From: an uncultured Gammaproteobacteria bacterium
GTDB lineage: Bacteria > Pseudomonadota > Gammaproteobacteria > Ga0077536
Direction: 5' to 3'
NCBI GenBank assembly: GCA_963976285.1
Contig: CAXBJY010000012.1
Coordinates: forward strand, 23,830-87,829
Length of the DNA: 64,000 nt
Shown: positions 18,260-36,110 of the stretch, in pieces
Numbering within the stretch: the stretch's first letter is position 1
Layout of the letters: each line of letters starts with the position of its first letter
Notes under the pieces: generated by a model
Told to the model about the DNA's origin: nothing
Database searches by the model: none
The model's input: the letters and a program-made list of their open reading frames with translations, nothing else
Program-made: the position numbers and the translations under genes

Positions 18260-18281
18260 TTTCACGGGCGGAGCCGACGTC

Positions 18282-21654: not shown

Positions 21655-21678
21655 GTCGATGCACATGAGACGACACCA

Positions 21679-23334
21679 GTGAACAAACGCGTAAAAGGCC
21701 AGCAACGCGGCCGTCGGGTAGAACCGGCCGCCATCGAGGAAGTGCGCGCACTGACGGGTCCCGGAACCCTGCGTCGTGATCTGCTGATCGAGTATCTGCA
21801 CCTGATCCAGGACGCCTACGGGTGTATCAGCAGCGCGCATTGCGTCGCGCTCGCGAACGAGATGCGGCTGTCGACGACGGAAGTCTATGAAGTCGCAACG
21901 TTCTATCACCACTTCGACGTCCCGCGGGACGGCGAGGCACCACCGCCGGAACTCACCGTGCGCGTGTGCGAATCGGTGACCTGTGCGATGTACGGTGCCG
22001 CCGGCTTGATCGAGGAACTGCGTGAACAATGTGGCGCTGACGTGCGCATCCAGCCCGTCCCCTGTGTCGGTCGCTGCGCGACCGCGCCGGTTGCGGTAGT
22101 CGGCAACAACCCGATCGAACACGCGTGCGCGGCAGATGTCATGACGGCCGTGCAACAACGCGCCACCGAGCCCGCGTCCGTGGATCACGCGGACTACGCG
22201 GCGTACCGCGCGCACGGCGGCTACACGCTGCTCGCTGCCTGCCACGCGGGCCAACACACACGCGACGACATCGTTCAGGCGATGCAGGACTCGAAGCTGC
22301 GCGGGCTCGGTGGGGCGGGATTTCCGGCCGGCCAGAAATGGTCCATCCTGCGTGAACAGGCGGCGCCGCGCCTCGTGGCGGTGAATATCGATGAGGGCGA
22401 ACCCGGTACGTTCAAGGATCGCTATTACCTCGAACGCGATCCGCACCGGTTTATCGAAGGCATGCTGATCGCGGCCTGGGCCATCGAAGCACAAGCGTGT
22501 TATGTCTACATTCGTGACGAATATACCGGCTGCCGGCGCATCCTCGAGGCCGAACTCGCGGCGCTGCGCGCGGACCCGCCCGTAAACCTGCCGCGGATCG
22601 AATTGCGCCGCGGCGCCGGTGCCTACATCTGCGGTGAGGAGTCGGCGATGATCGAATCCATCGAGGGCAAGCGCGGACTGCCGCGCCTGCGGCCGCCGTA
22701 CGTCGCCCAGGTCGGCCTGTTCGGGCGGCCCACGCTCGAGCACAACCTCGAAACACTGCACTGGGTTCGCGACATCATCGAACAGGGCCCGCCCGCGTTT
22801 GCCGCGCACGGGCGCCGTGGACGAACGGGATTACGCTCGTTCTCCGTCAGCGGACGGGTCAAAAAGCCCGGCGTCCATGTCGCGCCGGCGGGCATCTCTG
22901 TAACCGAACTGATCGACGAATATTGTGGCGGCATGACGGATGGTCATGCGTTTTATGCTTATTTTCCCGGCGGCGCGTCCGGCGGGATCCTGCCGGCCTC
23001 GCTCGGTGACGAGCCGCTGGATTTCGATACGCTGCAGGAGCACGGCTGTTTTATCGGCTCCGCCGCCGTCATCGTGCTGTCCGATCAGGACAGTGCGCGC
23101 GACGCAGCACTGAATGCGATGCGCTTTTTCGAACACGAATCGTGCGGTCAATGCACCCCCTGCCGCGTCGGCACGGCTAAAGCCGCGGCCCTGATGCAGG
23201 CCGAGCACTGGGACACGCCGTTGCTCGAAGAGCTTGCCCGGGCGATGGAAGATGCATCGATTTGCGGACTCGGCCAGGCGGCGCCGAACCCGCTACGCTG
23301 TGCGCTGCGGTATTTCCCGCAGGAATTCGTCTAG
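21679..23334 (+). CDS. fdh1B: NAD-dependent formate dehydrogenase beta (diaphorase) subunit, NuoE+NuoF-like (Fdh1B-type)
   Basis: [2Fe-2S] VCESVTC...CVGRC; FMN/NADH motifs GLGGAGFP, NIDEGEPGT, YICGEE; [4Fe-4S] CGQCTPCRVG...SICGLG. Confidence 0.88.
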   Translation: MNKRVKGQQRGRRVEPAAIEEVRALTGPGTLRRDLLIEYLHLIQDAYGCISSAHCVALANEMRLSTTEVYEVATFYHHFDVPRDGEAPPPELTVRVCESVTCAMYGAAGLIEELREQCGADVRIQPVPCVGRCATAPVAVVGNNPIEHACAADVMTAVQQRATEPASVDHADYAAYRAHGGYTLLAACHAGQHTRDDIVQAMQDSKLRGLGGAGFPAGQKWSILREQAAPRLVAVNIDEGEPGTFKDRYYLERDPHRFIEGMLIAAWAIEAQACYVYIRDEYTGCRRILEAELAALRADPPVNLPRIELRRGAGAYICGEESAMIESIEGKRGLPRLRPPYVAQVGLFGRPTLEHNLETLHWVRDIIEQGPPAFAAHGRRGRTGLRSFSVSGRVKKPGVHVAPAGISVTELIDEYCGGMTDGHAFYAYFPGGASGGILPASLGDEPLDFDTLQEHGCFIGSAAVIVLSDQDSARDAALNAMRFFEHESCGQCTPCRVGTAKAAALMQAEHWDTPLLEELARAMEDASICGLGQAAPNPLRCALRYFPQEFV

Positions 23335-23339
23335 CGGCA

Positions 23340-26090
23340 ATGGACGGAAAAATGGAAACGATCACGTTTACGCTGGACGGCAAGACAGTCGAGGCCCTCC
23401 CGGGCGAAACGATTTTGCAGGCGGCAAGCCGAACCGGCACGGACATCCCGCACCTGTGCTACAAGGATGGCTACCGTGCCGACGGAAACTGCCGCGCCTG
23501 CGTCGTGGAGATCGACGGCGAACGCACACTCGCGCCCTCGTGCTGCCGTACACCGCGCGACGGTATGTCCGTAGCCTCGGGCAGCGAACGTGCACGGCAT
23601 TCACAGCGGATCGTGCTCGAGCTGCTGAAAGCCGATATGCCGCGCGGCGACCGCTCACCGTATACGCCGCGTTCCGAATTCGACCACTGGGCGGAATTTC
23701 TCGGCGTCGGCGAAGCGCGCTTTCCGGCGCGGGCGCAGCCAGACGCGGACCTGTCGAATCCGGCGATCGCGGTCAATCTCGACGCGTGTATCCAGTGTAC
23801 GCGCTGCGTGCGTGCGTGCCGCGAAGAGCAGGTAAACGATGTCATCGGCTACGCCTATCGCGGCGCACACGCGAAGATTGTGTTCGATCTCGACGATTCG
23901 ATGGGCGACAGCACCTGTGTCAGTTGCGGTGAATGCGCGCAGGCGTGCCCGACCGGTGCGCTGATGCCGGCGGCGGATGCCGGCAACACGGTGGCCGACC
24001 GGATCGTCGAATCGGCGTGCCCGTACTGCGGCGTCGGCTGTTTGCTGAACTACCACGTGAAGGACGACCGGATCCAGTTCGTCGAAGGCCGCGATGGACC
24101 TGCGAACCACAGCCGCCTGTGCGTGAAGGGACGCTACGGATTCGATTACGTGCATAACCCGGCGCGCCTGACGAATCCGCTTATCCGTCGGGAAGGGGTC
24201 GCGAAGACGACGGCGCTGTTGTCATATGACGATATCGACGCGACATTCCGCGAGGCCACGTGGGACGAGGCGCTCGATTTCGCCGCCTCAGGCCTCGCCG
24301 CGATTCGTCGCGAATCCGGCCCGAACGCGCTCGCGGGTTTTGGCTCGGCCAAGGGCTCGAATGAAGAAGCCTACCTGTTCCAGAAACTCGTCCGTGCCGG
24401 CTTCGGCACGAACAATGTCGATCACTGTACCCGCCTGTGTCACGCGTCCTCCGTCGCGGCGATGCTCGAGACGATCGGTTCAGGGTCGGTGTCGAACCAG
24501 GTAGCCGACGTCGCCGAGGCCGAGGTGATCATGATCATCGGCGCGAAACCCACGGTGAATCACCCGGTCGCCGCGACGTTCATGAAGAACGCGGCGAAGA
24601 ACGGCAAAATCCTGATCCTGCTTGATCCCTATCGCTCCGATCTCGCGCGACACGCGGATTATTACCTGCAGTTCCGCGCCGACACGGACGTGCCGTTGCT
24701 GAACGGCATCATGCACGCGATTATCGAGCAGGGCCTGCACAACGAAGCATACATCGAGCAATACACGGAAGGTTTCGCGGCCCTGCGCGAAGCCGTGCGC
24801 GACTACTCGCCGGAAAGGGTCGCGCCGATTTGCGGCATTCCGGCCGAGACCTTGCGCGAAGTCGCGCGCGTGTACGCGACGTCGCGCGGTTCGATGATTT
24901 TCTGGGGTATGGGCATCTCCCAGCACATCCATGGCACGGACAATGCGCGTTGCCTGATTTCGCTCGCGCTACTCACCGGACAGATCGGGCGACCCGGGAC
25001 CGGACTGCATCCCCTGCGTGGACAAAACAACGTTCAGGGAGCCTCCGACGTCGGGCTCATCCCGATGGTATTCCCCGATTATCAGGCGGTGAGCGACGAC
25101 GCGGCGCGCGGCCGCTTCGAGACCCTGTGGAACACGCCGCTCGATCCCGAGCCCGGACTCACGGTCGTCGAAATCATGGGCGCGGTGCATGCCGGCAAAC
25201 TGCACGGTATGTACATCATGGGTGAAAACCCGGCGATGTCGGATCCGAATCTGAATCACGCGCGTGCCGCACTGGCGAAACTGAAACACCTCGTCGTGCA
25301 GGATATCTTCATGACCGAAACCGCCGGGTTCGCCGATGTGATCCTGCCCGCTTCCGCGTTCCCCGAAAAAACCGGGACGTTTACGAATACGGATCGGCGA
25401 GTCCAGCTAGGACGCAAAGCGATCCCCTGCCCCGGCGACGCGCGGGAAGATTTGTGGATTATCGAGCAGATGGCCAAACGCCTCGGCCTCGACTGGCATT
25501 ACAGCGACGTCGCGGACGTTTTCGATGAAATGCGGCAGGCCGTGCCGAGCATCGCCGGGATCACCTGGGAGCGTCTGCAAAGCGAGCATTCCGTTACCTA
25601 CCCGTGTAAGAACGTCGGCGACCCGGGCCAGGAGATCCTGTTCGAGAACGGCTTCCCGACCCCGAGTGGTCGCGGGAAATTCGTCGCGGCAGCGTACACG
25701 CATGCGGCGGAACTGCCGGATGACGAGTATCGTTTTATCCTGATGACGGGTCGCCAGCTGGAGCACTGGCACACCGGCAGTATGACGCGCCACGCGAGTG
25801 TGCTCGATGCCATTGAACCGGAACCCGTCGTCAGCCTCCACCCGGACGATATGCGCGCGTTGAAAATCGACGACGGCGAGTTCGTCCGCGTCGAATCGCG
25901 CCGTGGGGAACTCGTCGCTCGCGTGCGCATGGACGCCGGGCTGCAGACCGGATCGGTGTTCATGGCGTTTTGCTATGCGGAAGCCGCCGTTAATGTGCTG
26001 ACCGTCGATGATCTCGATCCGCACGGAAAAATTCCGGAGTTCAAATTCTGCGCGGTGAAAGTCTCCGCCGCGACGGCGACGATCGCATAA
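23340..26090 (+). CDS. fdh1A: Formate dehydrogenase alpha subunit (Mo/W-bis-MGD, Cys ligand; Fdh1A-type)
   Basis: N-terminal NuoG-like Fe-S domain (GNCRAC, CIQCTRCVRAC, CVSCGECAQAC), CPYCGVGC, DHCTRLCHASS, LRGQNNVQG, PEFKFCAV; start 23340 or 23352. Confidence 0.92.
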   Translation: MDGKMETITFTLDGKTVEALPGETILQAASRTGTDIPHLCYKDGYRADGNCRACVVEIDGERTLAPSCCRTPRDGMSVASGSERARHSQRIVLELLKADMPRGDRSPYTPRSEFDHWAEFLGVGEARFPARAQPDADLSNPAIAVNLDACIQCTRCVRACREEQVNDVIGYAYRGAHAKIVFDLDDSMGDSTCVSCGECAQACPTGALMPAADAGNTVADRIVESACPYCGVGCLLNYHVKDDRIQFVEGRDGPANHSRLCVKGRYGFDYVHNPARLTNPLIRREGVAKTTALLSYDDIDATFREATWDEALDFAASGLAAIRRESGPNALAGFGSAKGSNEEAYLFQKLVRAGFGTNNVDHCTRLCHASSVAAMLETIGSGSVSNQVADVAEAEVIMIIGAKPTVNHPVAATFMKNAAKNGKILILLDPYRSDLARHADYYLQFRADTDVPLLNGIMHAIIEQGLHNEAYIEQYTEGFAALREAVRDYSPERVAPICGIPAETLREVARVYATSRGSMIFWGMGISQHIHGTDNARCLISLALLTGQIGRPGTGLHPLRGQNNVQGASDVGLIPMVFPDYQAVSDDAARGRFETLWNTPLDPEPGLTVVEIMGAVHAGKLHGMYIMGENPAMSDPNLNHARAALAKLKHLVVQDIFMTETAGFADVILPASAFPEKTGTFTNTDRRVQLGRKAIPCPGDAREDLWIIEQMAKRLGLDWHYSDVADVFDEMRQAVPSIAGITWERLQSEHSVTYPCKNVGDPGQEILFENGFPTPSGRGKFVAAAYTHAAELPDDEYRFILMTGRQLEHWHTGSMTRHASVLDAIEPEPVVSLHPDDMRALKIDDGEFVRVESRRGELVARVRMDAGLQTGSVFMAFCYAEAAVNVLTVDDLDPHGKIPEFKFCAVKVSAATATIA

Positions 26091-26492
26091 CCGGCTTCAT
26101 CCGACAGCGCGCCAGCCGGGACGCAGCGGTTATTCACGCTGACGTGGCCGCTCGAGAAGGTAGAAGTCATGCGCGCGGGCTGACGGCCCTGGCGACTGGA
26201 GTATCGTCGCGCCGAAACCGCTGCCCGGGTCTGGCGGACGTGAATCCGATGCGGCTTACCGCGGATCGCATCATCGATCCCGCTCCGGGGCGTCAGGTTT
26301 GTCCGGTAGCGGCTCCAACCGGGTTTATCATGCGTTTTTTGCCGCGACGGGAACCGTCGATACGGCGCATCGGCGACGACAGCCCCGGAACCTGACCGGA
26401 GCGCGAACGGCAGGCGCCGCAACGCGAAAATACCGGACGGTCGTCGGATCCCGGTTGCGCGATCGCCGACGACGCGCGCGCCGGCGAAAGCG

Positions 26493-27233
26493 TTATTTCG
26501 TCAGCGCGGCGCTGTGAGCCGCGGTGCCCGGTTCAACGCTGACGAGTTGCAGGAATTCGCGAATCAGCGGCAAATCATCGGGCCCGGACCCGGGGATCAC
26601 CGTCTCGATACTGTAAATGTAGCCGGGAATTTTATCCGACACGACAATGCGGTAGGACTTGTCCGCGAATTCCTCGAACAGGGCCCGCTTCGGATCATTT
26701 GCGTAGGGGCTGAAAGAGACCCGGACCGCTGGCAGCGCTTCGCCGTTAAAGTTGACCGTAACATTCTCGACACTCGCGGCATCGGCCATCGCGAACTTGA
26801 TGCGACGCTGAAAATAACGCCAGCGTTCGCGCGATTTTCCGTCCGGATCGGTCAGGCGATTCATCTCGTAGACATCGCCCTGCAGGTAGATTTTCAGGAT
26901 CGGGTTGACGTTCGTGCTTTCAACCGGCGGTACTTCGAACCGACGCTCACCGGTGAAAAAATCGACTGACGCCGCCTTCGTGCCGTCGTCCTTGACCGCG
27001 CGAATCGTAAACGTGACCTTATCCGAAAACCCCGGTTCGAACGTTCCGGTGCGCTCGAATGCATAATTCAGCTGCAGCGGTTGCTCGATCATCTTCAGTT
27101 GATCGGTCATCCAGAGCAGCGTTTCCGCCTGGGAAAACTCGGCTTCCCCGGCCACGGCCGTGAGTACGAACAGTTGCAGCAACGCGGCCGCCATGACGCA
27201 CCGCACACCTGTTCTGAACCTGTTAATCGTCAT
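26493..27233 (-). CDS. Secreted hypothetical protein (about 246 aa), last gene of the paz-xoxJ unit
   Basis: Signal peptide MTINRFRTGVRCVMAAALLQLFVLTAVA; start overlaps the xoxJ stop by 11 bp; globular composition. Confidence 0.7.
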   Translation of the reverse strand: MTINRFRTGVRCVMAAALLQLFVLTAVAGEAEFSQAETLLWMTDQLKMIEQPLQLNYAFERTGTFEPGFSDKVTFTIRAVKDDGTKAASVDFFTGERRFEVPPVESTNVNPILKIYLQGDVYEMNRLTDPDGKSRERWRYFQRRIKFAMADAASVENVTVNFNGEALPAVRVSFSPYANDPKRALFEEFADKSYRIVVSDKIPGYIYSIETVIPGSGPDDLPLIREFLQLVSVEPGTAAHSAALTK

Positions 27234-28089
27234 CGTCGTCCACCTTTTTCGTGTACACGAGCTCGAGGCGCGGTATTCCGTAGTCGTCGAGAATTGCATT
27301 GATCTCGTCCTGATTTTCCTCGATCAATTTATCGATCGTCGCTTTCCATTTCGGTTCGCCGTAGCGTACGGCCATTGATATCTGGAAATCGAACAGCACG
27401 CGCAGTTCATTGCGCATGGGGATGACGACGATTTCATGATCCTTGATGCCTTTCGCGTAATAACCCGCAATCGGGCCCCACACGAGCGTCAGGTTGATCT
27501 TGTCCTCGACGAGATCTTCCTCGATGATCTTCCCCGGATTTCGTTCCGTATCCCCGGACATGATCTGATAAGGCGTGGATTGCTCCATCAGGCCGCGATG
27601 ATAGAACCATTCCGGGGCCGGCCCCTTGTCCCAGACGCCGATCCTCAGTTTTGCTTTCTGCTCGGGCGGCAGATTCTTCAGATCGTCCTGCGACTTGATG
27701 AAATCGAGCCCGCGTCCCTTCACGTAGACGAGTGCCCACGCTGAATGCAGATACGGGCGGGTAGTCGCGGCGAGTTCGAAGTTTTCGATGACCCCCATTA
27801 CGAGATCGCATTTGTACTGACCATCCTCGGTGTTGTCATCCCGCAGCGTGTTGCGAATGAAGCCGATACGTTGCGGAAACCACACATATTCGAGCGGTAC
27901 GCCGAGTTTCTCCGCAAACAGTTCCGCGATCTTGTTCTCGTAACCCGCCCCGGCCCGGTCCGACATCGGCAGATTCGCCGGTGGCGCGCAGACTTTCAGG
28001 GAGCCGCGATCGAGCGGGTCGGCGTGAACCGGCGCCGCCAGCATCAGCGCTGCGAATAGTGCAATACCAATCCGATAAGTCATGTTCAT
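27223..28089 (-). CDS. xoxJ: XoxJ/MxaJ periplasmic substrate-binding-protein-like MDH accessory
   Basis: Signal peptide, LKVCAPPANLPMS, GYENKIAELFA, GFIRNTL, CDLVMGV, WGPIAGY, ISMAVRYGE; next to xoxF. Confidence 0.88.
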   Translation of the reverse strand: MNMTYRIGIALFAALMLAAPVHADPLDRGSLKVCAPPANLPMSDRAGAGYENKIAELFAEKLGVPLEYVWFPQRIGFIRNTLRDDNTEDGQYKCDLVMGVIENFELAATTRPYLHSAWALVYVKGRGLDFIKSQDDLKNLPPEQKAKLRIGVWDKGPAPEWFYHRGLMEQSTPYQIMSGDTERNPGKIIEEDLVEDKINLTLVWGPIAGYYAKGIKDHEIVVIPMRNELRVLFDFQISMAVRYGEPKWKATIDKLIEENQDEINAILDDYGIPRLELVYTKKVDDDDD

Positions 28090-28200
28090 GATTATACGAT
28101 GCTACGCGGTTTTGAAGGTGAGCGGGTGATGCGGGGCCTGGGGAGAGAGGTTTCCGAAGCAGGGCGGGCGCCCTGTCGATGGCGCCCGCATGCTTTCGGC

Positions 28201-28659
28201 CTAGCCCTCGGCGCGCTTGGCAAGCGCCTTTTTCATCTTTCTGATCGTCCGGTTGACCATGTTGCGTCCGACCGAAACACCCGGCAGCGACGCTTCAATC
28301 GATTCGAGGTTTGCCGGGTCGCCGTCCCCGACGATGATGGCGCCGACCATGCCGGTCGAGATGTGCGGGGTGCACTTGTAGATGTAAGCGCCCTCCTTCT
28401 CCACCGTTATCGTGAACGCCTCTTCACCCAGCTTCGAATGCCAGCCTTCGGCGCCTTCCGGAATCATCCCCTCGAGCGATGCCGTGTCGTGCCCGGCCAT
28501 GTTCGTAAACGTTACCGTATCGCCAGGTTGCGCGAACAACACGAGTGGTTGCCATTGCGTAATTACACCTTTCACTTTCAGTTGCTCGGCGTTCGCACCT
28601 TGCGCGACGACAGCCGCGAAAATCAGCCCGGCGAAATAGGTCATAGTTCCGAATCGCAT
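28201..28659 (-). CDS. Periplasmic pseudoazurin (type-1 blue copper protein)
   Basis: Signal peptide ending ANA; GH...MIPEGAE...KCTPHISTGMVGAI gives the His, Cys, His, Met ligand set; GGAG RBS. Confidence 0.9.
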   Translation of the reverse strand: MRFGTMTYFAGLIFAAVVAQGANAEQLKVKGVITQWQPLVLFAQPGDTVTFTNMAGHDTASLEGMIPEGAEGWHSKLGEEAFTITVEKEGAYIYKCTPHISTGMVGAIIVGDGDPANLESIEASLPGVSVGRNMVNRTIRKMKKALAKRAEG

Positions 28660-28801
28660 CTAACATTCTCCAACAGTTGTACAAAATTTCCGGCGCGAGC
28701 GGCGCACATCGTTGATACGTACCGCGCACGTATTCCGGGTCACCGTGCTGTAACGATAGAGTCGTTTCGATGAATGAACCCTGAACGCATGAGCGGTCGT
28801 T

Positions 28802-28829
28802 TTTATACCAGACCCCAAAATTCAGTCAA
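28802..28829 (-). promoter_or_regulatory. Putative sigma70 promoter for pseudoazurin-xoxJ-hypothetical
   Basis: Minus strand TTGACT (28829-28824), 16-bp spacer, TATAAA (28807-28802), about 140 bp upstream of the paz start. Confidence 0.55.
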
Positions 28830-28877
28830 GAAGGTCAATGACTTAAGTACTTGCGCGCGCATGCGCAGCGGTCCCGT

Positions 28878-29549
28878 TCAGGCGCCGTCGTGACTCTCCA
28901 GCGCCTGCTTCAGTTTGCGAATCGCGCGGCCAATCATGCCCTTGTTTTGCGGGTGCGCCTCGATCGCATCGAGGTTTGCGTACGGCGGGTCGCCGACCGC
29001 AATCGCGCCGATCATTCCGAGGCTCACATGCGGGTTGCACTTGTACATGTAGATTCCCGGGACATCCGGCGACACCGCGAATCCTTCCTGGCCAAGCTTC
29101 GATTTCCAGGTCGCGGCGCCCTCGGGGATCATGCCTTCGATGGTTTCGCTGTCGTGACCGGCCATCTGGCGAAATACGATCTGGTCACCGGGTTTGACGA
29201 ATAACACGAGTGGCGCCCATTGCGTCACGACGCCTTTAACGATGTGCTGGGTGGGCGCTGCCGCCGGCATCGGATCGGCGGTATCCGGCGCCGGCTCCGC
29301 GCGCACCGGTTCCGATGCGGCGTCCGGTACTGGCGCCGGTTCCGCATTCGGCGCAGTTGTCACCGCCGGCGCGGGACTCTGCGGCATCGCGTGCATGCCA
29401 CTGTCGTCCTCGCTCGTCACCGCTTGAGGCATCCCGGCCGATGGCTTCGGATCAGCGCTGCCGGGAGCGTCATCGTTCGAGCAGGCGGTCAGCGCGAACG
29501 CTACGATCAGTGCGGACACGAAGGCAGAATTCGGGACTCTGATTTTCAT
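28878..29549 (-). CDS. Lipoprotein pseudoazurin with Pro/Ala-rich N-terminal tether
   Basis: Lipobox LTA|C, about 75-aa low-complexity linker, then GH...MIPEGA...KCNPHVSLGMIGAI copper domain. Confidence 0.88.
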   Translation of the reverse strand: MKIRVPNSAFVSALIVAFALTACSNDDAPGSADPKPSAGMPQAVTSEDDSGMHAMPQSPAPAVTTAPNAEPAPVPDAASEPVRAEPAPDTADPMPAAAPTQHIVKGVVTQWAPLVLFVKPGDQIVFRQMAGHDSETIEGMIPEGAATWKSKLGQEGFAVSPDVPGIYMYKCNPHVSLGMIGAIAVGDPPYANLDAIEAHPQNKGMIGRAIRKLKQALESHDGA

Positions 29550-29590
29550 AGCAAAGGATTTCTCAGTTTTCTGTCGCCATGCGACGCAGG

Positions 29591-29627
29591 AAAAAAAAAC
29601 CCGGCGCCTCTCGCGAAGCGCCGGGTT
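29591..29627 (-). terminator. Rho-independent terminator after xoxF
   Basis: AACCCGGCGC/GCGCCGGGTT stem with an A9 run (U-tail on the minus strand), 30 bp after the xoxF stop. Confidence 0.85.
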
Positions 29628-29657
29628 GATCACAGAATTACAAGAGTAATTCTACGC

Positions 29658-31520
29658 TTACGGCAGGCTGAAAACGCTCAGCACACCGCCGAGGCGGGTG
29701 TAGCTGTTCAAGCCCTTGTAAGCGCCGACGGCACCGAGACCGTCCGTGTCGTTGATCAAGCCAGCGGCCATGCCGATACCGGCCCAACCACCAACACCGG
29801 ACAGAACACCAACATACTGTTTGCCACCATGGCCCCAGCTGTTGACGTTACCGATGATGCCGGAAGGCGTTTTGAATTTCCAAAGCAGCTTGCCGCTCTT
29901 CGCGTCGATGGCTTTCAGATAGCCACCCAAGGTGCCGTAGAAAACAACATCGCCGGCCGTCGCCAGTGCGCCACTCCAAACGGAGAAGCGTTCCGGAATC
30001 GACCAGACGATTTTGCCTTTGTCCGCATCCCAAGCGATGAAGTTACCCAGGTTGTTATTGTTCGCGTTGTTACCGAACTCGGGGCCCGGTGACACACGAC
30101 CTGCAGGGAACATGCTCAGAACTGCGTTGACGTAAGGCTGACCCGCGACGTACTCACCACCGCTGACCGGCTCGTAGTTCATGCAGACGTGGTTCGTCGG
30201 CACATAGAACAAGCCAGTACGCGGGCTAAACGCTGCCGGTTGCTGGTCTTTCGAACCCAGCGCGGCAGGGCAAATGTTCGTCGAGTTGACGTCTTCGCCG
30301 TTAGCATGCGTGCTGTACTTCGCAACCACCTGGGGACGGCCCGTCTTCATATCGACGTGCGTTGCCCAGTTAACTGCGGGGTCAAATTTCTCGGCGACAA
30401 GCAGTGCACCGTTGGTGCGGTCCATGGTGTAACCAAAGCCGTTCCGGTCGAAATGGACCAACGCCTTCGTGTCTTTACCCTTGACCTTCATGTCGACGAG
30501 GATCATTTCGTTGATGCCGTCGTAATCCCACTCATCGTGAGGCGTCATCTGGTAAACCCAATGGGCCATACCAGTATCTACGTCACGCGAGAAAATCGAC
30601 ATCGACCACTTGTTGTCGCCAGGGCGAACAACCGGGTTCCATGTCGACGGATTACCGGTACCGTAGTAAAGGGCATTACGCTCTTTATCATACGGCCACC
30701 AACCCCAGGTCGAACCACCACCGATTTTCCACTGATCGCCTTTCCAGGTTTTCAGTGAAGAATCCTTGCCGATGGGTTGACCAAGCGACGTTGTCTTCAT
30801 CGGATCGACGAGCATATCCTCGTCCGGTCCCATGCTGTAGGCGCGCCAGGCGCGCTTGCCATCGCTGAGGTTATAGGCATTGATCCAGCAACGAACACCG
30901 AATTCCGCGCCCGACATACCCGTGATGACTTTGTCTTTCATCACATGCGGAGCGTTTGTATTCGTTTGTCCGAGTTTCGGATCGCCGTTCTTGACAGACC
31001 AAACCAACTCACCAGTTTTCGCGTTCAACGCGACCAACGTGGTGTCGGCCTGCTGTAACAGGATCTTGCCATCACCGTAACCAAGACCACGGTTCACCGT
31101 ATCGCAGCACATCACTGGGACGGTTTCGTCGTAATCCTGGACCGGGATGTATTCCCAAACGATTTCCAACGTATCGAGATTAATCGCGAACGTGTTGTTC
31201 GGGAATGCCGCATGAATGTACAACGTATCATGCGGAAGACCGGTTGCAGACCCGGGCAGTACCAGCGGACCACCTTCATGGCCACGCAGGACCCCCGTTG
31301 AGAATGTCCAGGCTGCTTGGAGCTTGTGCGCGTTCGTATTGTTGATTTGCTTCAACTCAGTATAACGCCAGTTCCAATAGTTACCGCCCGGAAAGGCCCA
31401 ATAGTTGGGGTCTTGGTTTAGCTTCTCTACACCAGCGTTAGCCAGCACCCCATTGGATGCCAGAACCACTACGAGAGAGGCTACCGTTATGAGCCATCGT
31501 TTTAACGATGATTTTCTCAT
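29658..31520 (-). CDS. xoxF: Lanthanide-dependent PQQ methanol dehydrogenase XoxF (XoxF5/4-like, clade not resolved)
   Basis: [19 protein letters not shown] (vicinal disulfide), [18 protein letters not shown] with the extra Ln-binding Asp (D-Y-D), [12 protein letters not shown]; AAGGAGGAGG RBS before ATG 31520; no mxaI. Confidence 0.96.
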
Positions 31521-31954
31521 GACCTCCTCCTTCACACTTTTTTCACTATCACTGTTAACAGTCACGTGTTGACCTCTAAGGTGTTTAAACTCCTGGCCGG
31601 CCCGAGATCAAAAAACCGGTCGAGAGTATAGCTGTCTGTATTTTACGTTCGAACGCAATCGCCTCGGGTTCGCGATCGAACGTTTCCGGGAATGCACTGC
31701 ATGCATGACGCAAATCCGTGCGTGGAACGATGCCTGGTCTGCCGCGAAAACTTTGTTATTTTTGTGCCGGTGAGACCAGCCGCCTGCCACGATGCCGCTA
31801 CCGCCGCGAAGATCGGGTATCCCGGTGTTGCAACAACCGCCCGTAGAGTCGGCCTAAGGCCTGCGGTCGCGGGTGTCGAATCTGCGTGGGCTAGGATTTT
31901 TATGCTTGCTTTTCCGGTAATCGCAACGCGTCATTTTCTTCGACGCTTCAAAAG

Positions 31955-31982
31955 ATTATAGAGATTTATTTGCCCCCAGCAA
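31955..31982 (-). promoter_or_regulatory. Possible sigma70 promoter for xoxF
   Basis: Minus strand TTGCTG, 16 bp, perfect TATAAT (31960-31955), embedded in nested inverted repeats about 430 bp upstream of xoxF. Confidence 0.35.
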
Positions 31983-32111
31983 CCGTTTTCGGGACGGGCA
32001 AAATGCCCGATTCACGGTTGCCGCGACAACGGAAAATGAAGCGTCAAGACGTGCGGCACCGTATGTTCAGCCGCTGCCCGGCGAAGCAAAAACAGCGCCG
32101 CTGCGATCCGA

Positions 32112-32492
32112 CTAATCCGCCGCACTCGGCGCGTCTTTCGTTTTCTTGCGATTCGCTCCGATGAAGCATCGCTTCTTCGCGTCGGCACGTGCAGCTTCGA
32201 GTTTTGCCACGATTTCATCGGAACGATCGCTTTCGCGGAACAAACCGCCTTTCTCACCGGGCATACGCTTGTAAATTTCGTAAGTGCGCGCTTCGGTGAA
32301 ATCCTCGAAATCGACCGCCTGAGCAATAACGTCGATTTCACACGAGCACGCGTACAGATTATCGACCGTCTGCCCGCCGGCCAGACGCATGCAGGTGAGC
32401 ACGTGATCCACGCGTTCCAGGGTCGGGTAGTCATTCGCGCTCGCGAACGCAGCGGGTAAGATCAGAAAAAGACCGAGAAGTTTGGATTTCAT
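32112..32492 (-). CDS. Small secreted Cys-rich hypothetical protein upstream of xoxF
   Basis: Signal peptide ending ASA|NDYPT; four Cys (TCM, CSC, RCF). It resembles, from memory, NDYPT-type proteins near PQQ dehydrogenase genes. Confidence 0.7.
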   Translation of the reverse strand: MKSKLLGLFLILPAAFASANDYPTLERVDHVLTCMRLAGGQTVDNLYACSCEIDVIAQAVDFEDFTEARTYEIYKRMPGEKGGLFRESDRSDEIVAKLEAARADAKKRCFIGANRKKTKDAPSAAD

Positions 32493-32625
32493 GAATTCTC
32501 TACTCTCGCGCTTGGCGTTAATCTAAAGATTATATCAGAGGAATCCGCTAGCTTACTTAGGGCGCGGCCCCGGAAGGCCGCGACCGTTAGAAAAAGCGCA
32601 ACGTTTAATCAAGTGTATTTTCCCC

Positions 32626-33603
32626 ATGAGTAATATCCTCGTTACCGGCGGCGCCGGGTATATCGGCAGCCACACGGCCAAGTTGCTCGGCGCTGCCGGG
32701 CATACGCTCACCACGCTCGATGACCTGAGCAAGGGTTTCCGCGAAGCGGTTCTGTTCGGCGAACTCGTTGTTGGCGATGTCGGCGACATGGAGCTCGTGG
32801 ATTCGATCCTGAGCAAGAACGGGATCGATTCCGTGATTCATTTCGCCGCGAAAACGATCGTACCGGAGTCGGTCGAGAATCCGCTGCTGTACTACGGCAA
32901 CAACACGAGCAAAACCCGCAACCTGATTGAATGCTGCGTCCGAAACGGCGTACGCAACTTTATTTTTTCGTCGACCGCCGCGGTGTACGGTATCCCGGCC
33001 TCGGGCCGCTGCAGTGAGCAGTCGCCGCTCGCACCGATCAATCCGTACGGCACCTCGAAAATGATGTCGGAAATGATCCTCCGCGACACGGCCGCCGCGA
33101 GCGATCTGAATTACGTGATCCTGCGCTACTTCAACGTCGCCGGTTCCGATCCGGACGGCGAGATTGGCCAGTCGACTCCGAACGCAACGCTGTTGATCAA
33201 GGTTGCCTGCGAAGTCGCGATGGGTAAACGCGAAAAGCTGCTCGTCTACGGGACGGATTACGACACGCCCGATGGCACCGGCGTGCGCGACTACATACAC
33301 GTAAGCGACCTCGCGCTCGCACACCTGAACGCGCTCGAGTACCTCGAACGCGGCGGGCAATCACAAACGCTGAACTGCGGCTACGGTCGCGGCATGAGCG
33401 TTAACGAGATCATCGAGATCGTCGAGGCGGCGCACGGCAGCCCGATCAACGTCGAACGGGTCGGGCGTCGCGCCGGCGATCCCCCGTCCCTCGTCGCCGA
33501 GGCCGACGCGATCCGGACCCTGCTCGGCTGGCATCCGCAACATGCTTCGGCCGACGAGATCGTACGCACCTCGCTCGCATGGGAGCAAAATCGCAAATGG
33601 TAG
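32626..33603 (+). CDS. galE: UDP-glucose 4-epimerase
   Basis: LVTGGAGYIGSH, HFAAK, FSSTAAVYG, YGTSK, LRYFNVAG, GTGVRDYIHV, RRAGDP. Confidence 0.93.
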   Translation: MSNILVTGGAGYIGSHTAKLLGAAGHTLTTLDDLSKGFREAVLFGELVVGDVGDMELVDSILSKNGIDSVIHFAAKTIVPESVENPLLYYGNNTSKTRNLIECCVRNGVRNFIFSSTAAVYGIPASGRCSEQSPLAPINPYGTSKMMSEMILRDTAAASDLNYVILRYFNVAGSDPDGEIGQSTPNATLLIKVACEVAMGKREKLLVYGTDYDTPDGTGVRDYIHVSDLALAHLNALEYLERGGQSQTLNCGYGRGMSVNEIIEIVEAAHGSPINVERVGRRAGDPPSLVAEADAIRTLLGWHPQHASADEIVRTSLAWEQNRKW

Positions 33604-34400
33604 CGCCACACGGGCAACGTTGCCGCCATGCCCGGGTAGCCATCCGCGCCATCGCGGTCCTGCTGGCGGGCTTATTCGCAGCCTTGCCGGCGACGACGGT
33701 TGCGGCCGATCTCGTTGGTCTCATTTCCGCGATCAAGCCGAGCATAGTCGGGGTCGGCACGTCGCAGGCAACGCGGCGGCCGCCACATGAACTGCTCGGC
33801 ACCGGCTTCGTCGTTGGCGACGGCAGCCTCGTACTGACAAACGCCCATGTCGTGCCGGATGATCTTGACGATTCAAAGTTCGAAAAGCTCGTCGTGTTCT
33901 TCGGCACCGGCAAGAAGGTCCGCGGGCGCGAAGCGAGCGTCGTCGCGACGGACCGGACCCACGACCTCGCGCTCCTGCGTCATGCCGGACCGAAAGCACC
34001 GGCGCTGCGCATTGCCGGCCGGGAAACGGTGCCGGAAGGGACGCAGATCGCGTTTACCGGATTTCCGATCGGCGCCGTGCTGGGCCTGTATCCCGTGACG
34101 CACACAGGGATCATCTCGGCGATCACGCCAACGGCGATTCCGGCACCGAACTCAACGAGTCTCAGCGCGAATCAGATCAGGGCCTTGCGCGCCCCCTATT
34201 CCGTGTACCAACTCGATGCAACGGCGTACCCGGGCAACAGCGGCAGCCCCCTCATCGATGTTGAATCCGGTACCGTGATCGGGATCATCAACAAGGTGCT
34301 GGTGAAGAAAACGAAGGAAAACCTGTTGCGGGATCCAAGCGATATCAGCTATGCGATCCCGGCGACGTTTCTGCTCGACTTGCTCGCGAAAGCCCGCTGA
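33597..34400 (+). CDS. Secreted trypsin-like (S1) serine protease without PDZ domain
   Basis: Triad TNAHVV / HDLALL / GNSGSP; signal peptide; start overlaps the galE stop. Confidence 0.85.
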   Translation: MVAPHGQRCRHARVAIRAIAVLLAGLFAALPATTVAADLVGLISAIKPSIVGVGTSQATRRPPHELLGTGFVVGDGSLVLTNAHVVPDDLDDSKFEKLVVFFGTGKKVRGREASVVATDRTHDLALLRHAGPKAPALRIAGRETVPEGTQIAFTGFPIGAVLGLYPVTHTGIISAITPTAIPAPNSTSLSANQIRALRAPYSVYQLDATAYPGNSGSPLIDVESGTVIGIINKVLVKKTKENLLRDPSDISYAIPATFLLDLLAKAR

Positions 34401-34419
34401 ACGGCGGCGCGCCGCTTGG

Positions 34420-35298
34420 CTATCCGTCGCGCAAAGCCGCGGCGAGCGCCCGTTCGAGCGCGCGCCGTTCGGACGCCGACGTGAACGAGTGATCGGCGGC
34501 CGGGAAATCGGTCACGCTCACATTGTCCCTGCCCATCACGTCGGACCAGCGGCGCTGCATCTTCACGAGTTCACGAAACTCCTGGGCGACGAGGTCGTTG
34601 CCGGATAACGCGACGAGTACGCTGCCGTCGAAGCGGCGCAGTCCCACGAGCATCCGATACACGTATCCCGGTGCGCGGATCATCGTCGTTTCCGGGGTCA
34701 GCGCGGATTTCAGAAAATGCATGAGATATCCGCCGAGTGACAACAGGCTTTTCGGGATATTGATCTTGCCGGTGACGAGCTTCTTCCAGAATTCCTTGCC
34801 CCGCAAGCGCGAGATGTAATATCCCTCGATGCGCGCCCGTGCTTCGAGGTTGCTGGAATGCACCCACGGATTGATCAACAGCAGCGTGTCGACCTTGCTA
34901 ATCTGATGCCCGGCCATGAGCGCCGCCGAGGCCCCGTCACACAGGCCACACAGTGCCAGGCTACGCAGCGCAGGCACGTTGTTCACGAGCGTTTCCACCG
35001 CGGCTTCTATGTCCGGGAACGTGTTTTCGAACCCGTCATAATTACCGCGATTGTCACCGATCCCGCGATGATCGAAGCGCAGCACAGCCACCCCCGCCTC
35101 GGCCAGGTTGCGTGCGAGTTGCACGAACAGACGGTGGCTGCTGACCCGGTACTGATCGCCACCCGCCACGAGCACGACGCCAACCTCGGCGCCACGGGGC
35201 CGGTTGATAATACCGACGAGTTCCGTGCCTTCGCAGCGAAACACGACCGGAAACTCGTCGCCGTAATCCGCGGCCCCGGTCTGCTGTGCCGCCGTCAC
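34420..35298 (-). CDS. Alpha/beta hydrolase 1, exosortase A system-associated type
   Basis: GGDQYRVSSHRLFV, RFDHRGIGD, GLCDGASA, LINPWV, YYISRL, ADHSF; GTGA overlap with hydrolase 2. Confidence 0.82.
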   Translation of the reverse strand: MTAAQQTGAADYGDEFPVVFRCEGTELVGIINRPRGAEVGVVLVAGGDQYRVSSHRLFVQLARNLAEAGVAVLRFDHRGIGDNRGNYDGFENTFPDIEAAVETLVNNVPALRSLALCGLCDGASAALMAGHQISKVDTLLLINPWVHSSNLEARARIEGYYISRLRGKEFWKKLVTGKINIPKSLLSLGGYLMHFLKSALTPETTMIRAPGYVYRMLVGLRRFDGSVLVALSGNDLVAQEFRELVKMQRRWSDVMGRDNVSVTDFPAADHSFTSASERRALERALAAALRDG

Positions 35299-36110
35299 GC
35301 TTGCGCTCCGGCGATGAAGTCGACCACGCACGCGATGGCGTCGGTCGGCAGGCTTGGGAGCTCCTGCGACCAGAACGGTTCCGTTGCAACGAATGCATAC
35401 GTCGCGTCCGCCCCCTCCGCGCACCATGATTCAGCGAGGGCGCGCATCGCCGCATTACGCCGGGTTTCGGGCGAGCGTCCACAGCCGAGTACGAGGGCGT
35501 GTTGCAGCCGCGCGCCGAGATCTTCGATCGTGGCGTCGTTGAGGCTGGCGTACAGGCCGGACGACAGGTCGTAACCTCCGACTTCCATCGACGCGCCACC
35601 GGCCAGGGCCTCGGTGAGCATCGCAATCGATTCTTTCGTGCCCTCGAAAATTGAGCGCGCCACGCGTAACTGCAGGAACTCACGCACGGAATCGGCGCCG
35701 GTGACAAATGGTTCGACGAGGCAGATGCGGGCGAAGCGATCCGGTTCGGCGTCGAGCAGATCGCTCAGGAACAAGGCCCCGGCGCGCAACGCAACGAGAT
35801 GCACCGGGCCCGCCTTGTCATGCAACCAGGCCGAAGCCAGACGCAATTCCTCGATCCAGCGGGACCACTCGGCGTTGCGAAACTCGCCGGTACTGTCGCC
35901 CGTACCGGACAGGTCCGGTTGCAGGACATGAAAGCCGGCTTCGCTGAGCCTGAACGAGATCCGGGATACGAACGAACGCGTGCGGTTCATTTCCTCGGCG
36001 AAGGCCGGCAACATGAGGACGCTGCCGCGTACTGGGACGTGGGCGACCGGTTCGCGATGGATGCAGAACAGCCGTTCGGCGCCGGACTCGATGAATAGTG
36101 GTTGTATCAA
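35295..36110 (-). CDS. Alpha/beta hydrolase 2, exosortase A system-associated type
   Basis: PAFAEEMNRTR, DLSGTGDSTGEF, ALRAGA, FLQLRVA, EVGGY, EPFW; TTG start with GAGGGG RBS. Confidence 0.82.
   Translation of the reverse strand: MIQPLFIESGAERLFCIHREPVAHVPVRGSVLMLPAFAEEMNRTRSFVSRISFRLSEAGFHVLQPDLSGTGDSTGEFRNAEWSRWIEELRLASAWLHDKAGPVHLVALRAGALFLSDLLDAEPDRFARICLVEPFVTGADSVREFLQLRVARSIFEGTKESIAMLTEALAGGASMEVGGYDLSSGLYASLNDATIEDLGARLQHALVLGCGRSPETRRNAAMRALAESWCAEGADATYAFVATEPFWSQELPSLPTDAIACVVDFIAGAQA

What the first reader, a model, noticed from the sequence alone, without database searches (positions are those of the whole stretch)
28878..29549. Membrane-tethered pseudoazurin on a long flexible Pro/Ala linker
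Seen: lipobox LTAC, Ser at +2, then about 75 residues of low-complexity Pro/Ala/acidic linker (PAPAVTTAPNAEPAPVPDAASEPVRAEPAPDTADPMPAAAP), then an intact His/Cys/His/Met copper site. Established: this architecture parallels the lipid-modified azurin (Laz) of Neisseria, and classical pseudoazurins are soluble. Inference: a swinging-arm electron shuttle. With the soluble paralog it could form a two-step relay, or serve two sinks such as an oxidase and a peroxidase/nitrite reductase.
Basis: partly seen in the sequence, partly recalled or inferred. Interest (0 to 1): 0.65.

Follow-up and report, generated by a model that had tools for sequence, protein, structure and literature searches.

The report
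Lipid-tethered pseudoazurin in a XoxF cluster
A small blue-copper electron carrier that is normally free-floating is here fastened to a membrane by a lipid anchor and a long floppy tether, and it sits where the lanthanide-dependent methanol dehydrogenase XoxF normally keeps its cytochrome partner, so it probably carries that enzyme's electrons; this is untested.

Summary
On the minus strand, 28878-29549 encodes a 223-aa protein with three parts. Residues 1-23 are a signal peptide ending in the lipobox LTAC. Residues 24-97 are a disordered linker (17 Ala, 16 Pro, net charge -10). Residues 98-223 are a pseudoazurin domain with ligands His132, Cys171, His174 and Met179.

Cys23 and the four ligands are invariant in 36 homologues. 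Linker sequence decays to 15-25% identity, but linker length stays at 73.5 +/- 7.4 residues.

The context is the main addition. The gene lies in the order xoxF - lipo-pseudoazurin - soluble pseudoazurin - xoxJ - LolA-like protein. No c-type cytochrome gene is nearby. The genome, and 15 of 16 related genomes with this cluster, show no trace of cytochrome cL/XoxG; one has a near-miss below the cut-off.

The family has gained or lost membrane anchors at least seven times. Anchors are either lipoboxes or, in cultured Methylophaga, an N-terminal transmembrane helix.

Best reading: a membrane-tethered, probably inner-membrane, copper carrier in the XoxF-to-oxidase chain. Other tethered cupredoxins and cytochromes are known. 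I found no description of a tethered pseudoazurin or of a XoxF-pseudoazurin pairing. I rate it a new variant of a known kind. All function is inferred.

The parts
29481..29549 (-). Signal peptide with lipobox LTAC (residues 1-23). Cys23 (29481-29483) is the predicted acylated first residue of the mature protein.
   Evidence: Cys23 is invariant in 36 homologues.
29259..29480 (-). Disordered acidic Pro/Ala-rich linker (residues 24-97, 74 aa, net charge -10). It begins S-N-D-D, a possible inner-membrane retention signal.
   Evidence: composition; pLDDT about 58, no secondary structure; length 73.5 +/- 7.4 conserved while sequence is not; no DNA repeats.
28881..29258 (-). Pseudoazurin-type cupredoxin domain with two C-terminal helices (residues 98-223). 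Copper ligands are His132 (29154-29156), Cys171 (29037-29039), His174 (29028-29030) and Met179 (29013-29015). The stop codon is 28878-28880.
   Evidence: Ligands are invariant.
29589..29627 (-). Terminator-like hairpin (13-bp stem, 9 G-C pairs) plus a T-run, between the xoxF stop and the lipo-pseudoazurin start. It is a likely attenuator that sets a high xoxF to low carrier ratio.
   Evidence: It is conserved in position with different stem sequences in L001-L005 and L081.
29658..31565 (-). xoxF, a lanthanide-type PQQ methanol dehydrogenase (WDYDG at residue 346). The likely true start is Met16 at 31520.
   Evidence: TIGR03075, 683.7 bits; PDB 6dam XoxF 919.6 bits, 6oc5 XoxF 852.8 bits; motif; 620-aa gene calls in relatives.
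28201..28659 (-). Soluble pseudoazurin paralogue (152 aa, ordinary cleavable signal peptide). It is 55% identical to the tethered domain.
27223..28089 (-). XoxJ/MoxJ-like periplasmic binding protein.
   Evidence: TIGR03871, 257.5 bits, above its cut-off of 212.15.
26493..27233 (-). Conserved secreted 246-aa protein with no family, last gene of the cluster. The predicted fold resembles the LolA/LprG/LppX superfamily.
   Evidence: conserved in 30 loci; pLDDT 89.8; Foldseek probability 1.0 but TM only 0.23-0.39; no Pfam hit.
32112..32492 (-). Conserved secreted 126-aa four-Cys protein upstream of xoxF, with no family.
   Evidence: 56-87% identity in close xoxF clusters, about 41-44% in distant ones; no Pfam hit.

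Best explanation
The gene encodes a type-1 copper electron carrier of the pseudoazurin kind. After signal peptidase II cleavage, the carrier is lipid-anchored at Cys23. The redox domain hangs on a disordered, acidic, Pro/Ala-rich tether of about 74 residues.

The gene is part of a conserved cluster: small Cys protein - xoxF - [tethered pseudoazurin] - soluble pseudoazurin - xoxJ - LolA-like protein. In this cluster the pseudoazurins take the place of xoxG, the dedicated cytochrome cL of lanthanide methanol dehydrogenase.

Most likely mechanism, all inferred. PQQH2 in periplasmic XoxF is reoxidised one electron at a time by Cu(II)-pseudoazurin. The tethered copy keeps a carrier within roughly 60-100 Angstrom (at most about 250) of the membrane surface. 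It passes the electrons on to a membrane oxidase. It does this either alone, as in relatives that have only the tethered form, or after the soluble paralogue. That second arrangement would mirror the classical cytochrome cL to cytochrome cH relay.

The anchor is more likely in the inner membrane than the outer.

Shown here: the architecture, its conservation, the synteny, the absence of cytochrome cL, and the repeated gain and loss of anchors.

Inferred: lipidation, which membrane, electron flow from XoxF, and the downstream acceptor.

My confidence by layer is about 0.85 that it is a lipid-anchored copper carrier, about 0.65 that it serves XoxF, and about 0.6 that the anchor is in the inner membrane.
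For: Architecture and conservation.

The neighbour is XoxF5-like. It scores 919.6 bits to PDB 6dam and 852.8 bits to 6oc5, and carries the lanthanide Asp motif WDYDG.

Synteny. The order xoxF - Paz - xoxJ - unknown recurs in about 30 of 80 related loci. The pseudoazurin lies within a few hundred bases of xoxF, which leaves no room for xoxG.

No cytochrome nearby. No CxxCH ORF occurs in window 18000-36000. In 16 related loci only three incidental CxxCH ORFs occur, all outside the cluster.

No cytochrome cL in the genomes. In the own genome the best TIGR03872 hit is 42.4 bits against a cut-off of 147.8. None of 16 related cluster-bearing genomes is over the cut-off, while 3 of 3 Methylophaga controls are.

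These two genes are the only cupredoxins found in this 6.0-Mb genome, which is 97% complete.

Genome G003 (locus L004) has the tethered form as its only pseudoazurin, next to xoxF.

Anchor turnover. The anchored or soluble state changed at least 7 times on well-supported branches. There are 31 lipobox forms and 9 forms with an N-terminal transmembrane helix, the latter necessarily in the inner membrane.

Inner-membrane hint. Nine confirmed outer-membrane lipoproteins of this genome have no acidic residue at +2 to +4. The inner-membrane-function lipoproteins ApbE (C|GNED), an RND membrane-fusion protein (C|SEPA) and a family-5 binding protein (C|AEPD) do. The target reads C|SNDD. Asp or Glu at +4 occurs in 34 of 44 homologues.

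Oxidases are available: five heme-copper oxidase subunit I hits.
Against: A strong terminator-like hairpin separates xoxF from the gene. Co-transcription is therefore not shown.

The domain scores 80.7 bits on TIGR02375, below the 109.85 cut-off. It is a divergent subfamily whose partners cannot be read from classical pseudoazurins.

The genome has NirS and three CCP/MauG-type proteins. These are classical pseudoazurin acceptors in Paracoccus (own knowledge).

In Methylophaga the tethered forms are orphan genes in genomes that keep cytochrome cL. The family's tether is therefore not tied to XoxF as such.

TIGR03872 is named for MoxG (cytochrome cL) and might under-score divergent XoxG proteins. 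One genome shows a 130.6-bit near-miss.

The inner-membrane calibration rests on 5 proteins against 9, and two of the five (DctP-type, PilP) have no acidic residue at +3 or +4.
Confidence: 0.6

Rival explanations
1. It is a classical pseudoazurin in function. It would take electrons from the bc1 complex and give them to cd1 nitrite reductase (NirS), a cytochrome c peroxidase or another periplasmic reductase. Its place beside xoxF would then be incidental.
For: The genome encodes NirS (482.3 bits) and three CCP/MauG-family proteins. Pseudoazurin donates to cd1 nitrite reductase and to peroxidase in Paracoccus (own knowledge). In Methylophaga the tethered relatives are not next to methanol dehydrogenase genes.
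Against: Synteny with xoxF and xoxJ is kept across dozens of genomes while the pseudoazurin sequence diverges to about 50%. Cytochrome cL is absent from these genomes. No NirK is over the cut-off. Neither nir nor ccp genes are near the cluster.
Confidence: 0.15
2. It is an outer-membrane lipoprotein like Laz. It would be anchored in the inner leaflet of the outer membrane, or surface-exposed, and the long linker would let it reach across the periplasm to its partners.
For: Ser at +2, with no Asp at +2, means outer-membrane sorting under the E. coli rule (own knowledge; summarises the rule). Neisseria Laz is an outer-membrane lipoprotein with an Ala/Pro-rich spacer (own knowledge). A 74-residue linker could in principle span up to about 250 Angstrom.
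Against: The Asp+2 rule does not hold generally outside Enterobacteriaceae (PMC6469965). In this genome nine confirmed outer-membrane lipoproteins lack acidic residues at +2 to +4, while three inner-membrane-function ones have them, as does the target. Nine homologues use an N-terminal transmembrane helix instead, which can only sit in the inner membrane.
Confidence: 0.3
3. It is not a redox carrier for XoxF but a copper-handling or maturation protein of the cluster, for example one that buffers or delivers periplasmic copper.
For: No direct evidence of electron transfer exists. The cluster holds other unexplained proteins, one LolA-like and one small four-Cys protein.
Against: A complete and invariant type-1 site (His, Cys, His, Met) with the pseudoazurin loop spacing C-x2-H-x4-M is the signature of electron transfer, not of copper trafficking. 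XoxF needs no copper (own knowledge).
Confidence: 0.04

Closest known systems
Classical pseudoazurins (Achromobacter cycloclastes, Alcaligenes faecalis, Paracoccus pantotrophus, Methylobacterium extorquens AM1; PDB 1bqk, 1paz, 1adw, 1pmy)
   Same: The fold is the same, including the two C-terminal helices. The four ligands and the C-x2-H-x4-M loop match. Identity is 31-39% over about 125 aligned positions for the closest solved ones.
   Different: The classical proteins are soluble with a cleavable signal peptide and serve nitrite reductase and other reductases. This one has a lipobox and a 74-residue tether. Its N-terminal hairpin is shorter (the profile match starts at position 12 of 116). 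It scores below the TIGR02375 cut-off. It sits in a xoxF cluster.
Laz, the lipid-modified azurin of Neisseria (own knowledge)
   Same: The overall architecture is shared: lipoprotein signal, an Ala/Pro-rich flexible spacer, then a type-1 copper domain.
   Different: Laz carries an azurin domain, not a pseudoazurin domain. Its spacer is built of AAEAP-type repeats, whereas here there is no repeat. Laz is in the outer membrane and serves peroxidase and nitrite reductase. The context here is methanol oxidation, and inner-membrane retention is favoured.
XoxG / MxaG (cytochrome cL), the dedicated acceptor of XoxF and MxaFI methanol dehydrogenases
   Same: It holds the same gene position, between xoxF and xoxJ, and is presumed to do the same job of taking single electrons from PQQH2.
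   Different: XoxG is a c-type heme protein. This protein is a copper protein with no CxxCH motif. It is a functional analogue only, not a relative.
Membrane-tethered soluble-type carriers: cytochrome cy of Rhodobacter capsulatus, cytochrome c552 of Paracoccus denitrificans, and auracyanins A (lipid anchor) and B (transmembrane tail) of Chloroflexus (own knowledge)
   Same: All have a membrane anchor, a flexible linker and a small redox domain that shuttles between membrane complexes. The auracyanin pair shows the same two anchor types that I see in this family.
   Different: They belong to different protein families and different electron-transfer chains. None is linked to a quinoprotein dehydrogenase.
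Amicyanin with methylamine dehydrogenase, and azurin with the quinohaemoprotein alcohol dehydrogenase ADH IIB of Pseudomonas putida HK5 (own knowledge)
   Same: These set the precedent that a cupredoxin can be the physiological acceptor of a periplasmic quinoprotein dehydrogenase.
   Different: The dehydrogenases differ (a TTQ enzyme, and a PQQ enzyme with its own heme). The cupredoxins are soluble. No such pairing is described for XoxF in the literature I could search.

Membership tests
Pseudoazurin (TIGR02375 / pseudoazurin fold) | Cupredoxin beta-sandwich followed by two C-terminal alpha-helices. | tested here: met
   The AlphaFold2 model has strands at 101-185 and helices at 193-197 and 204-221, with pLDDT above 90. 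The top 27 Foldseek PDB hits are pseudoazurins, with TM 0.79-0.90 on the target.
Pseudoazurin (TIGR02375 / pseudoazurin fold) | Type-1 copper ligands His, Cys, His and Met, with Cys-x2-His-x4-Met and the first His about 38-39 residues upstream. | tested here: met
   The ligands are His132, Cys171, His174 and Met179. They are invariant in 36 homologues and align to the ligands of 3tu6 and 5yw3.
Pseudoazurin (TIGR02375 / pseudoazurin fold) | Score above the curated equivalog cut-off. | tested here: not met
   The score is 80.7 bits against a cut-off of 109.85. The soluble paralogue also fails, at 85.6 bits. Both belong to a divergent subfamily.
Pseudoazurin (TIGR02375 / pseudoazurin fold) | Soluble periplasmic protein that donates electrons to nitrite reductase and related reductases. 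| tested here: not met
   A lipobox replaces the signal peptidase I site. The gene context is xoxF and xoxJ, not nir. The partner itself cannot be tested here.
Bacterial lipoproteins (PROSITE PS51257-type signal) | Positively charged N-terminus, hydrophobic core, and lipobox [LVI][ASTVI][GAS]C with Cys at position 15-35. | tested here: met
   K2 and R4, the core ALIVAFAL, the lipobox LTAC and Cys23 all fit. The window protein passes the rule, written from memory, as do 33 of 44 long homologues; the other 11 show the Cys but have mis-called N-termini.
Bacterial lipoproteins (PROSITE PS51257-type signal) | Actual diacylglyceryl modification, signal peptidase II cleavage and N-acylation. | not testable with these tools
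   This needs globomycin, palmitate labelling or mass spectrometry. The genome does have the Lol pathway member LolB.
Laz-type lipid-modified azurin | Azurin-class domain and a spacer of AAEAP pentapeptide repeats. | tested here: not met
   The domain is pseudoazurin-class. The linker DNA has no tandem repeat. The resemblance is architectural only.
Cytochrome cL (XoxG/MxaG, TIGR03872) | c-type heme motif CxxCH and a profile score over the cut-off. | tested here: not met
   The protein has no CxxCH motif, and no CxxCH ORF occurs in the cluster. The best hit in the whole genome is 42.4 bits against a cut-off of 147.8. Only functional analogy is proposed.

The most novel reading that the evidence does not exclude
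A clade of mostly uncultured, partly marine Gammaproteobacteria runs lanthanide-dependent methanol oxidation through a heme-free, copper-only periplasmic wire. XoxF would hand electrons to a soluble pseudoazurin, taking the role of cytochrome cL. An inner-membrane-tethered pseudoazurin, taking the role of cytochrome cH or cy, would deliver them to the terminal oxidase. This would be a new physiological partner class for XoxF. It could be an iron-sparing adaptation comparable to the plastocyanin / cytochrome c6 swap. The repeated gain of lipid or helix anchors would show selection for keeping the last carrier at the membrane.
Probability: 0.4. Interest if true: 0.75.

Novelty: new variant of a known kind. 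Interest (0 to 1): 0.62.

Why it matters
Every studied XoxF or MxaF methanol dehydrogenase hands its electrons to a dedicated c-type cytochrome (own knowledge). Here a conserved gene cluster swaps that cytochrome for blue-copper proteins, one of them membrane-tethered.

If this is confirmed, lanthanide methylotrophy gains a second kind of electron outlet. That would affect redox tuning, in-vitro assays of XoxF (which currently rely on artificial dyes or XoxG), and the iron and copper economy of marine methanol oxidisers.

The tethered family also offers a natural experiment on why cells fasten small carriers to membranes. Anchors were gained or lost at least seven times, and two anchor chemistries are in use.

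Cultured Methylophaga species carry tethered relatives, so parts of the idea can be tested genetically.

Tried and rejected
Alternative starts. GTG at 29633 would include the terminator hairpin and lacks homologue support. Internal Met39, Met51 and Met54 would give no signal peptide. I rejected all of these.

Repeat-built spacer like the Laz spacer. No tandem repeat was found.

Literature. I searched six term sets: pseudoazurin + xoxF; xoxF/xoxG/cupredoxin; xoxF + blue copper protein; pseudoazurin + lipoprotein + methanol dehydrogenase; pseudoazurin + Methylophaga; and xoxJ + azurin. None of the returned papers, judged from titles, abstracts and two passages read, described a tethered pseudoazurin or a XoxF-pseudoazurin pairing. 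The library lacks most subscription-journal papers, so this does not prove novelty.

Organism name. Cluster look-ups and contig records gave only 'Gammaproteobacteria bacterium' MAG labels and marine or metagenome sample identifiers.

Electrostatics as a partner clue. The tethered domain (net -1), the soluble paralogue (-2) and mature XoxF (-5) are all near neutral, which is uninformative.

RND membrane-fusion proteins as an inner-membrane calibration set. Only one of 17 over the cut-off has a lipobox. I widened the calibration to ApbE, binding proteins and PilP.

Pfam, NCBIfam and PDB sequence searches for the two unnamed cluster proteins found nothing.

Full report
**What is there**

The finding's coordinates bound a minus-strand ORF with ATG at 29549 and stop at 28878-28880, 223 aa long. 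It has three parts.

- Residues 1-23, MKIRVPNSAFVSALIVAFALTAC, form a lipoprotein signal peptide. It has K2 and R4, a hydrophobic core and the lipobox LTAC. It passes a PROSITE-type lipobox rule that I wrote from memory.
- Residues 24-97 are a low-complexity linker with 17 Ala, 16 Pro and 12 Asp/Glu, net charge -10. The DNA has no tandem repeat. AlphaFold2 predicts no secondary structure, with pLDDT of about 58.
- Residues 98-223 are a pseudoazurin-type cupredoxin. The evidence is Pfam PF00127, solved pseudoazurins at E 1e-21 and a model with pLDDT above 90. The top 27 PDB fold matches are all pseudoazurins.

The ligands are His132, Cys171, His174 and Met179, with the pseudoazurin spacing C-x2-H-x4-M. 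The domain falls below the curated pseudoazurin cut-off (80.7 against 109.85 bits). Its N-terminal hairpin is shorter than in classical pseudoazurins. It is therefore a divergent subfamily.

**Is it more than chance?**

A database search found 75 relatives, 44 of them long. In a 36-sequence alignment the lipobox Cys and all four copper ligands are invariant.

Identity to the window protein falls to 15-25% in the linker, while the domain stays at 50-100%. Linker length holds at 73.5 +/- 7.4 residues, with a range of 59-89. In one relative (P0002, 93% overall) the domain is 100% identical and every difference lies in the linker.

This pattern fits a spacer selected for length and composition rather than sequence. 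Gene callers of three independent assemblies chose the same start.

**Context**

The upstream neighbour (29658-31565, minus strand) is a XoxF-type lanthanide methanol dehydrogenase. It scores 919.6 bits to the Methylomicrobium buryatense XoxF structure 6dam and 852.8 bits to the Methylobacterium extorquens XoxF 6oc5. It carries the lanthanide-binding WDYDG motif.

Downstream lie three genes:
- a soluble pseudoazurin paralogue, 55% identical in the domain;
- a XoxJ-like binding protein (TIGR03871);
- a conserved secreted protein with no family.

The canonical order is xoxF-xoxG-xoxJ (own knowledge). Here two cupredoxins fill the xoxG slot. No ORF with a CxxCH heme motif lies within 18 kb.

The whole 6.0-Mb genome, 97% complete, has no cytochrome cL. 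The best TIGR03872 hit is 42.4 bits against a cut-off of 147.8. These two genes are its only cupredoxins.

**Relatives**

Among 80 loci from species-representative genomes, about 30 show xoxF followed directly by a pseudoazurin, then xoxJ and the unknown protein. Most belong to uncultured Gammaproteobacteria.

- Most of these have only the short, soluble form.
- L001, L002 and L005 have the tethered and soluble pair, as in the window.
- L003 and L004 have only the tethered form. In L004's genome it is the sole pseudoazurin.

None of 16 cluster-bearing genomes has a cytochrome cL over the cut-off, with one near-miss at 130.6 bits. All three Methylophaga genomes used as positive controls have one. 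No c-type cytochrome gene lies inside any of 16 such clusters.

**The tether as an evolving character**

Of 95 pseudoazurin genes in these loci, 55 are short. A further 31 have a lipobox plus a 50-118-residue acidic linker. The remaining 9 have an uncleaved N-terminal transmembrane helix plus a similar linker. The last group includes cultured Methylophaga thiooxydans and M. sulfidovorans.

A maximum-likelihood tree of the domains needs at least 7 changes of anchor state on well-supported branches. The window protein sits in an all-lipoprotein clade of six, with 99/99 support, and all six lie in xoxF clusters.

A search of 1.84 billion representative proteins gave 202 hits at E <= 1e-10. About 42 of the best 150 are lipobox or helix-tethered forms by my rough sequence rules, a few of which are probably mis-sorted. 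Tethering is thus recurrent and presumably adaptive.

In Methylophaga the tethered genes are orphans beside unrelated genes, in genomes that keep cytochrome cL. The tether is therefore a general device and is not specific to XoxF.

**Which membrane?**

Ser at +2 would mean the outer membrane under the E. coli rule. That rule is not general outside Enterobacteriaceae (PMC6469965). I calibrated within this genome.

- Nine family-confirmed outer-membrane lipoproteins have no acidic residue at +2 to +4. They are BamD, BamB, LolB, FlgH, a NodT-type channel, RlpA, BamE, Blc and a Pal-like protein.
- Three of five lipoproteins whose function requires the inner membrane do have one: ApbE (C|GNED), an RND membrane-fusion protein (C|SEPA) and a family-5 binding protein (C|AEPD).

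Only 7 of 144 crude lipobox ORFs have two or more acidic residues at +3 to +5, and the target (C|SNDD) is one of them. Asp or Glu occupies +4 in 34 of 44 homologues.

Together with the helix-anchored homologues, this favours the inner membrane at about 0.6. The sample is small and the rule is unproven.

**Mechanism (inferred)**

XoxF is soluble in the periplasm. Its PQQH2 would be reoxidised by Cu(II)-pseudoazurin. The tethered copy would keep a carrier close to the membrane. My rough estimate for a 74-residue disordered chain is a typical reach of 60-100 Angstrom and a contour length of about 250 Angstrom. It would pass electrons to one of the heme-copper oxidases, of which the genome has five subunit I hits.

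The soluble paralogue may act first, mirroring the cytochrome cL to cytochrome cH relay. It may instead act in parallel. The genomes with only the tethered form show that the tethered carrier can stand alone.

A 13-bp G+C-rich hairpin with a T-run lies between xoxF and the gene. It is conserved in position, with different stem sequences, in six related loci. This suggests attenuation that gives much more XoxF than carrier. It also means co-transcription is not shown.

**Rivals**

A classical role toward NirS or peroxidases cannot be excluded, because the genes are present. Gene context gives it no support. An outer-membrane, Laz-like location remains possible at about 0.3. A copper-handling role is unlikely given the intact type-1 site.

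**Comparison with the known**

Tethered small carriers are well known (own knowledge). Examples are Laz, auracyanins A and B, halocyanin, cytochrome cy and cytochrome c552. Cupredoxins that serve quinoprotein dehydrogenases are also known: amicyanin with methylamine dehydrogenase, and azurin with ADH IIB.

Two things appear to be undescribed in the literature I could search:
- a lipid- or helix-tethered pseudoazurin family;
- pseudoazurins in the xoxG slot of XoxF clusters that lack cytochrome cL.

I file it as a new variant of a known kind. All functional statements are inference from sequence, structure prediction and comparative genomics.

**Limits**

No complex modelling was possible and the organism has no name. 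The TIGR03872 profile may under-score divergent XoxG proteins. The lipobox rule and several comparisons rest on my own knowledge and are marked as such.

Noticed in passing
window 26493-27233 (-): This is the last gene of the xox cluster. It encodes a secreted 246-aa protein conserved at 35-56% identity in 30 related loci. It has no Pfam, NCBIfam or PDB sequence match. The AlphaFold2 model is confident (pLDDT 89.8) and Foldseek points to the LolA/LprG/LppX lipid-carrier superfamily, with probability 1.0 but TM of only 0.23-0.39. It also occurs in clusters that have only the soluble pseudoazurin.
   Followed up: partly
window 32112-32492 (-): A secreted 126-aa protein with four Cys lies upstream of xoxF in nearly every related cluster, at 56-87% identity in close clusters and 41-44% in three distant ones. 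It belongs to no family.
   Followed up: no
window 29589-29627 (-), and L001-L005, L081: A strong terminator-like hairpin with a T-run follows the xoxF stop codon. Its position is conserved across relatives while the stem sequence differs, with paired changes. It is probably an attenuator or mRNA-stabilising element.
   Followed up: partly
own genome, contig C18 near 72218 (+): A second small lipoprotein (124 aa) has the same start, C|GKDD, and a long Ala/Pro-rich spacer followed by a short helical domain. It has no Pfam hit.
   Followed up: no
own genome, contig C140 near 966 (-): A 161-aa lipoprotein has Asp at +2 and a single CRYCH heme motif. It is a candidate membrane-tethered c-type cytochrome. 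It has no Pfam hit at E <= 1e-5.
   Followed up: no
own genome: The genome has eight PQQ alcohol dehydrogenases over the TIGR03075 cut-off. Several lie in frames of 700-800 aa, which suggests quinohaemoprotein types. This is an unusually large set for one genome.
   Followed up: no
proteins P0083 (1452 aa) and P0093 (1353 aa): These giant proteins match the query in 9 and 7 separate stretches; a copper-site motif count gives 9 and 5. They have a twin-arginine-like signal and a lipobox, and their N-termini look haloarchaeal.
   Followed up: no
L012, L006, L013, L031, L033, L034: In these genomes the set of tethered pseudoazurin, soluble pseudoazurin, xoxJ and the LolA-like protein stands apart from xoxF. 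In L012 it follows recO and other housekeeping genes directly.
   Followed up: partly
window 23262-26090 (+) and neighbours: A formate dehydrogenase alpha subunit and, in relatives, an NADH-dehydrogenase-type subunit and a GXGXG-domain protein lie next to the xox cluster. This fits a one-carbon oxidation island.
   Followed up: no
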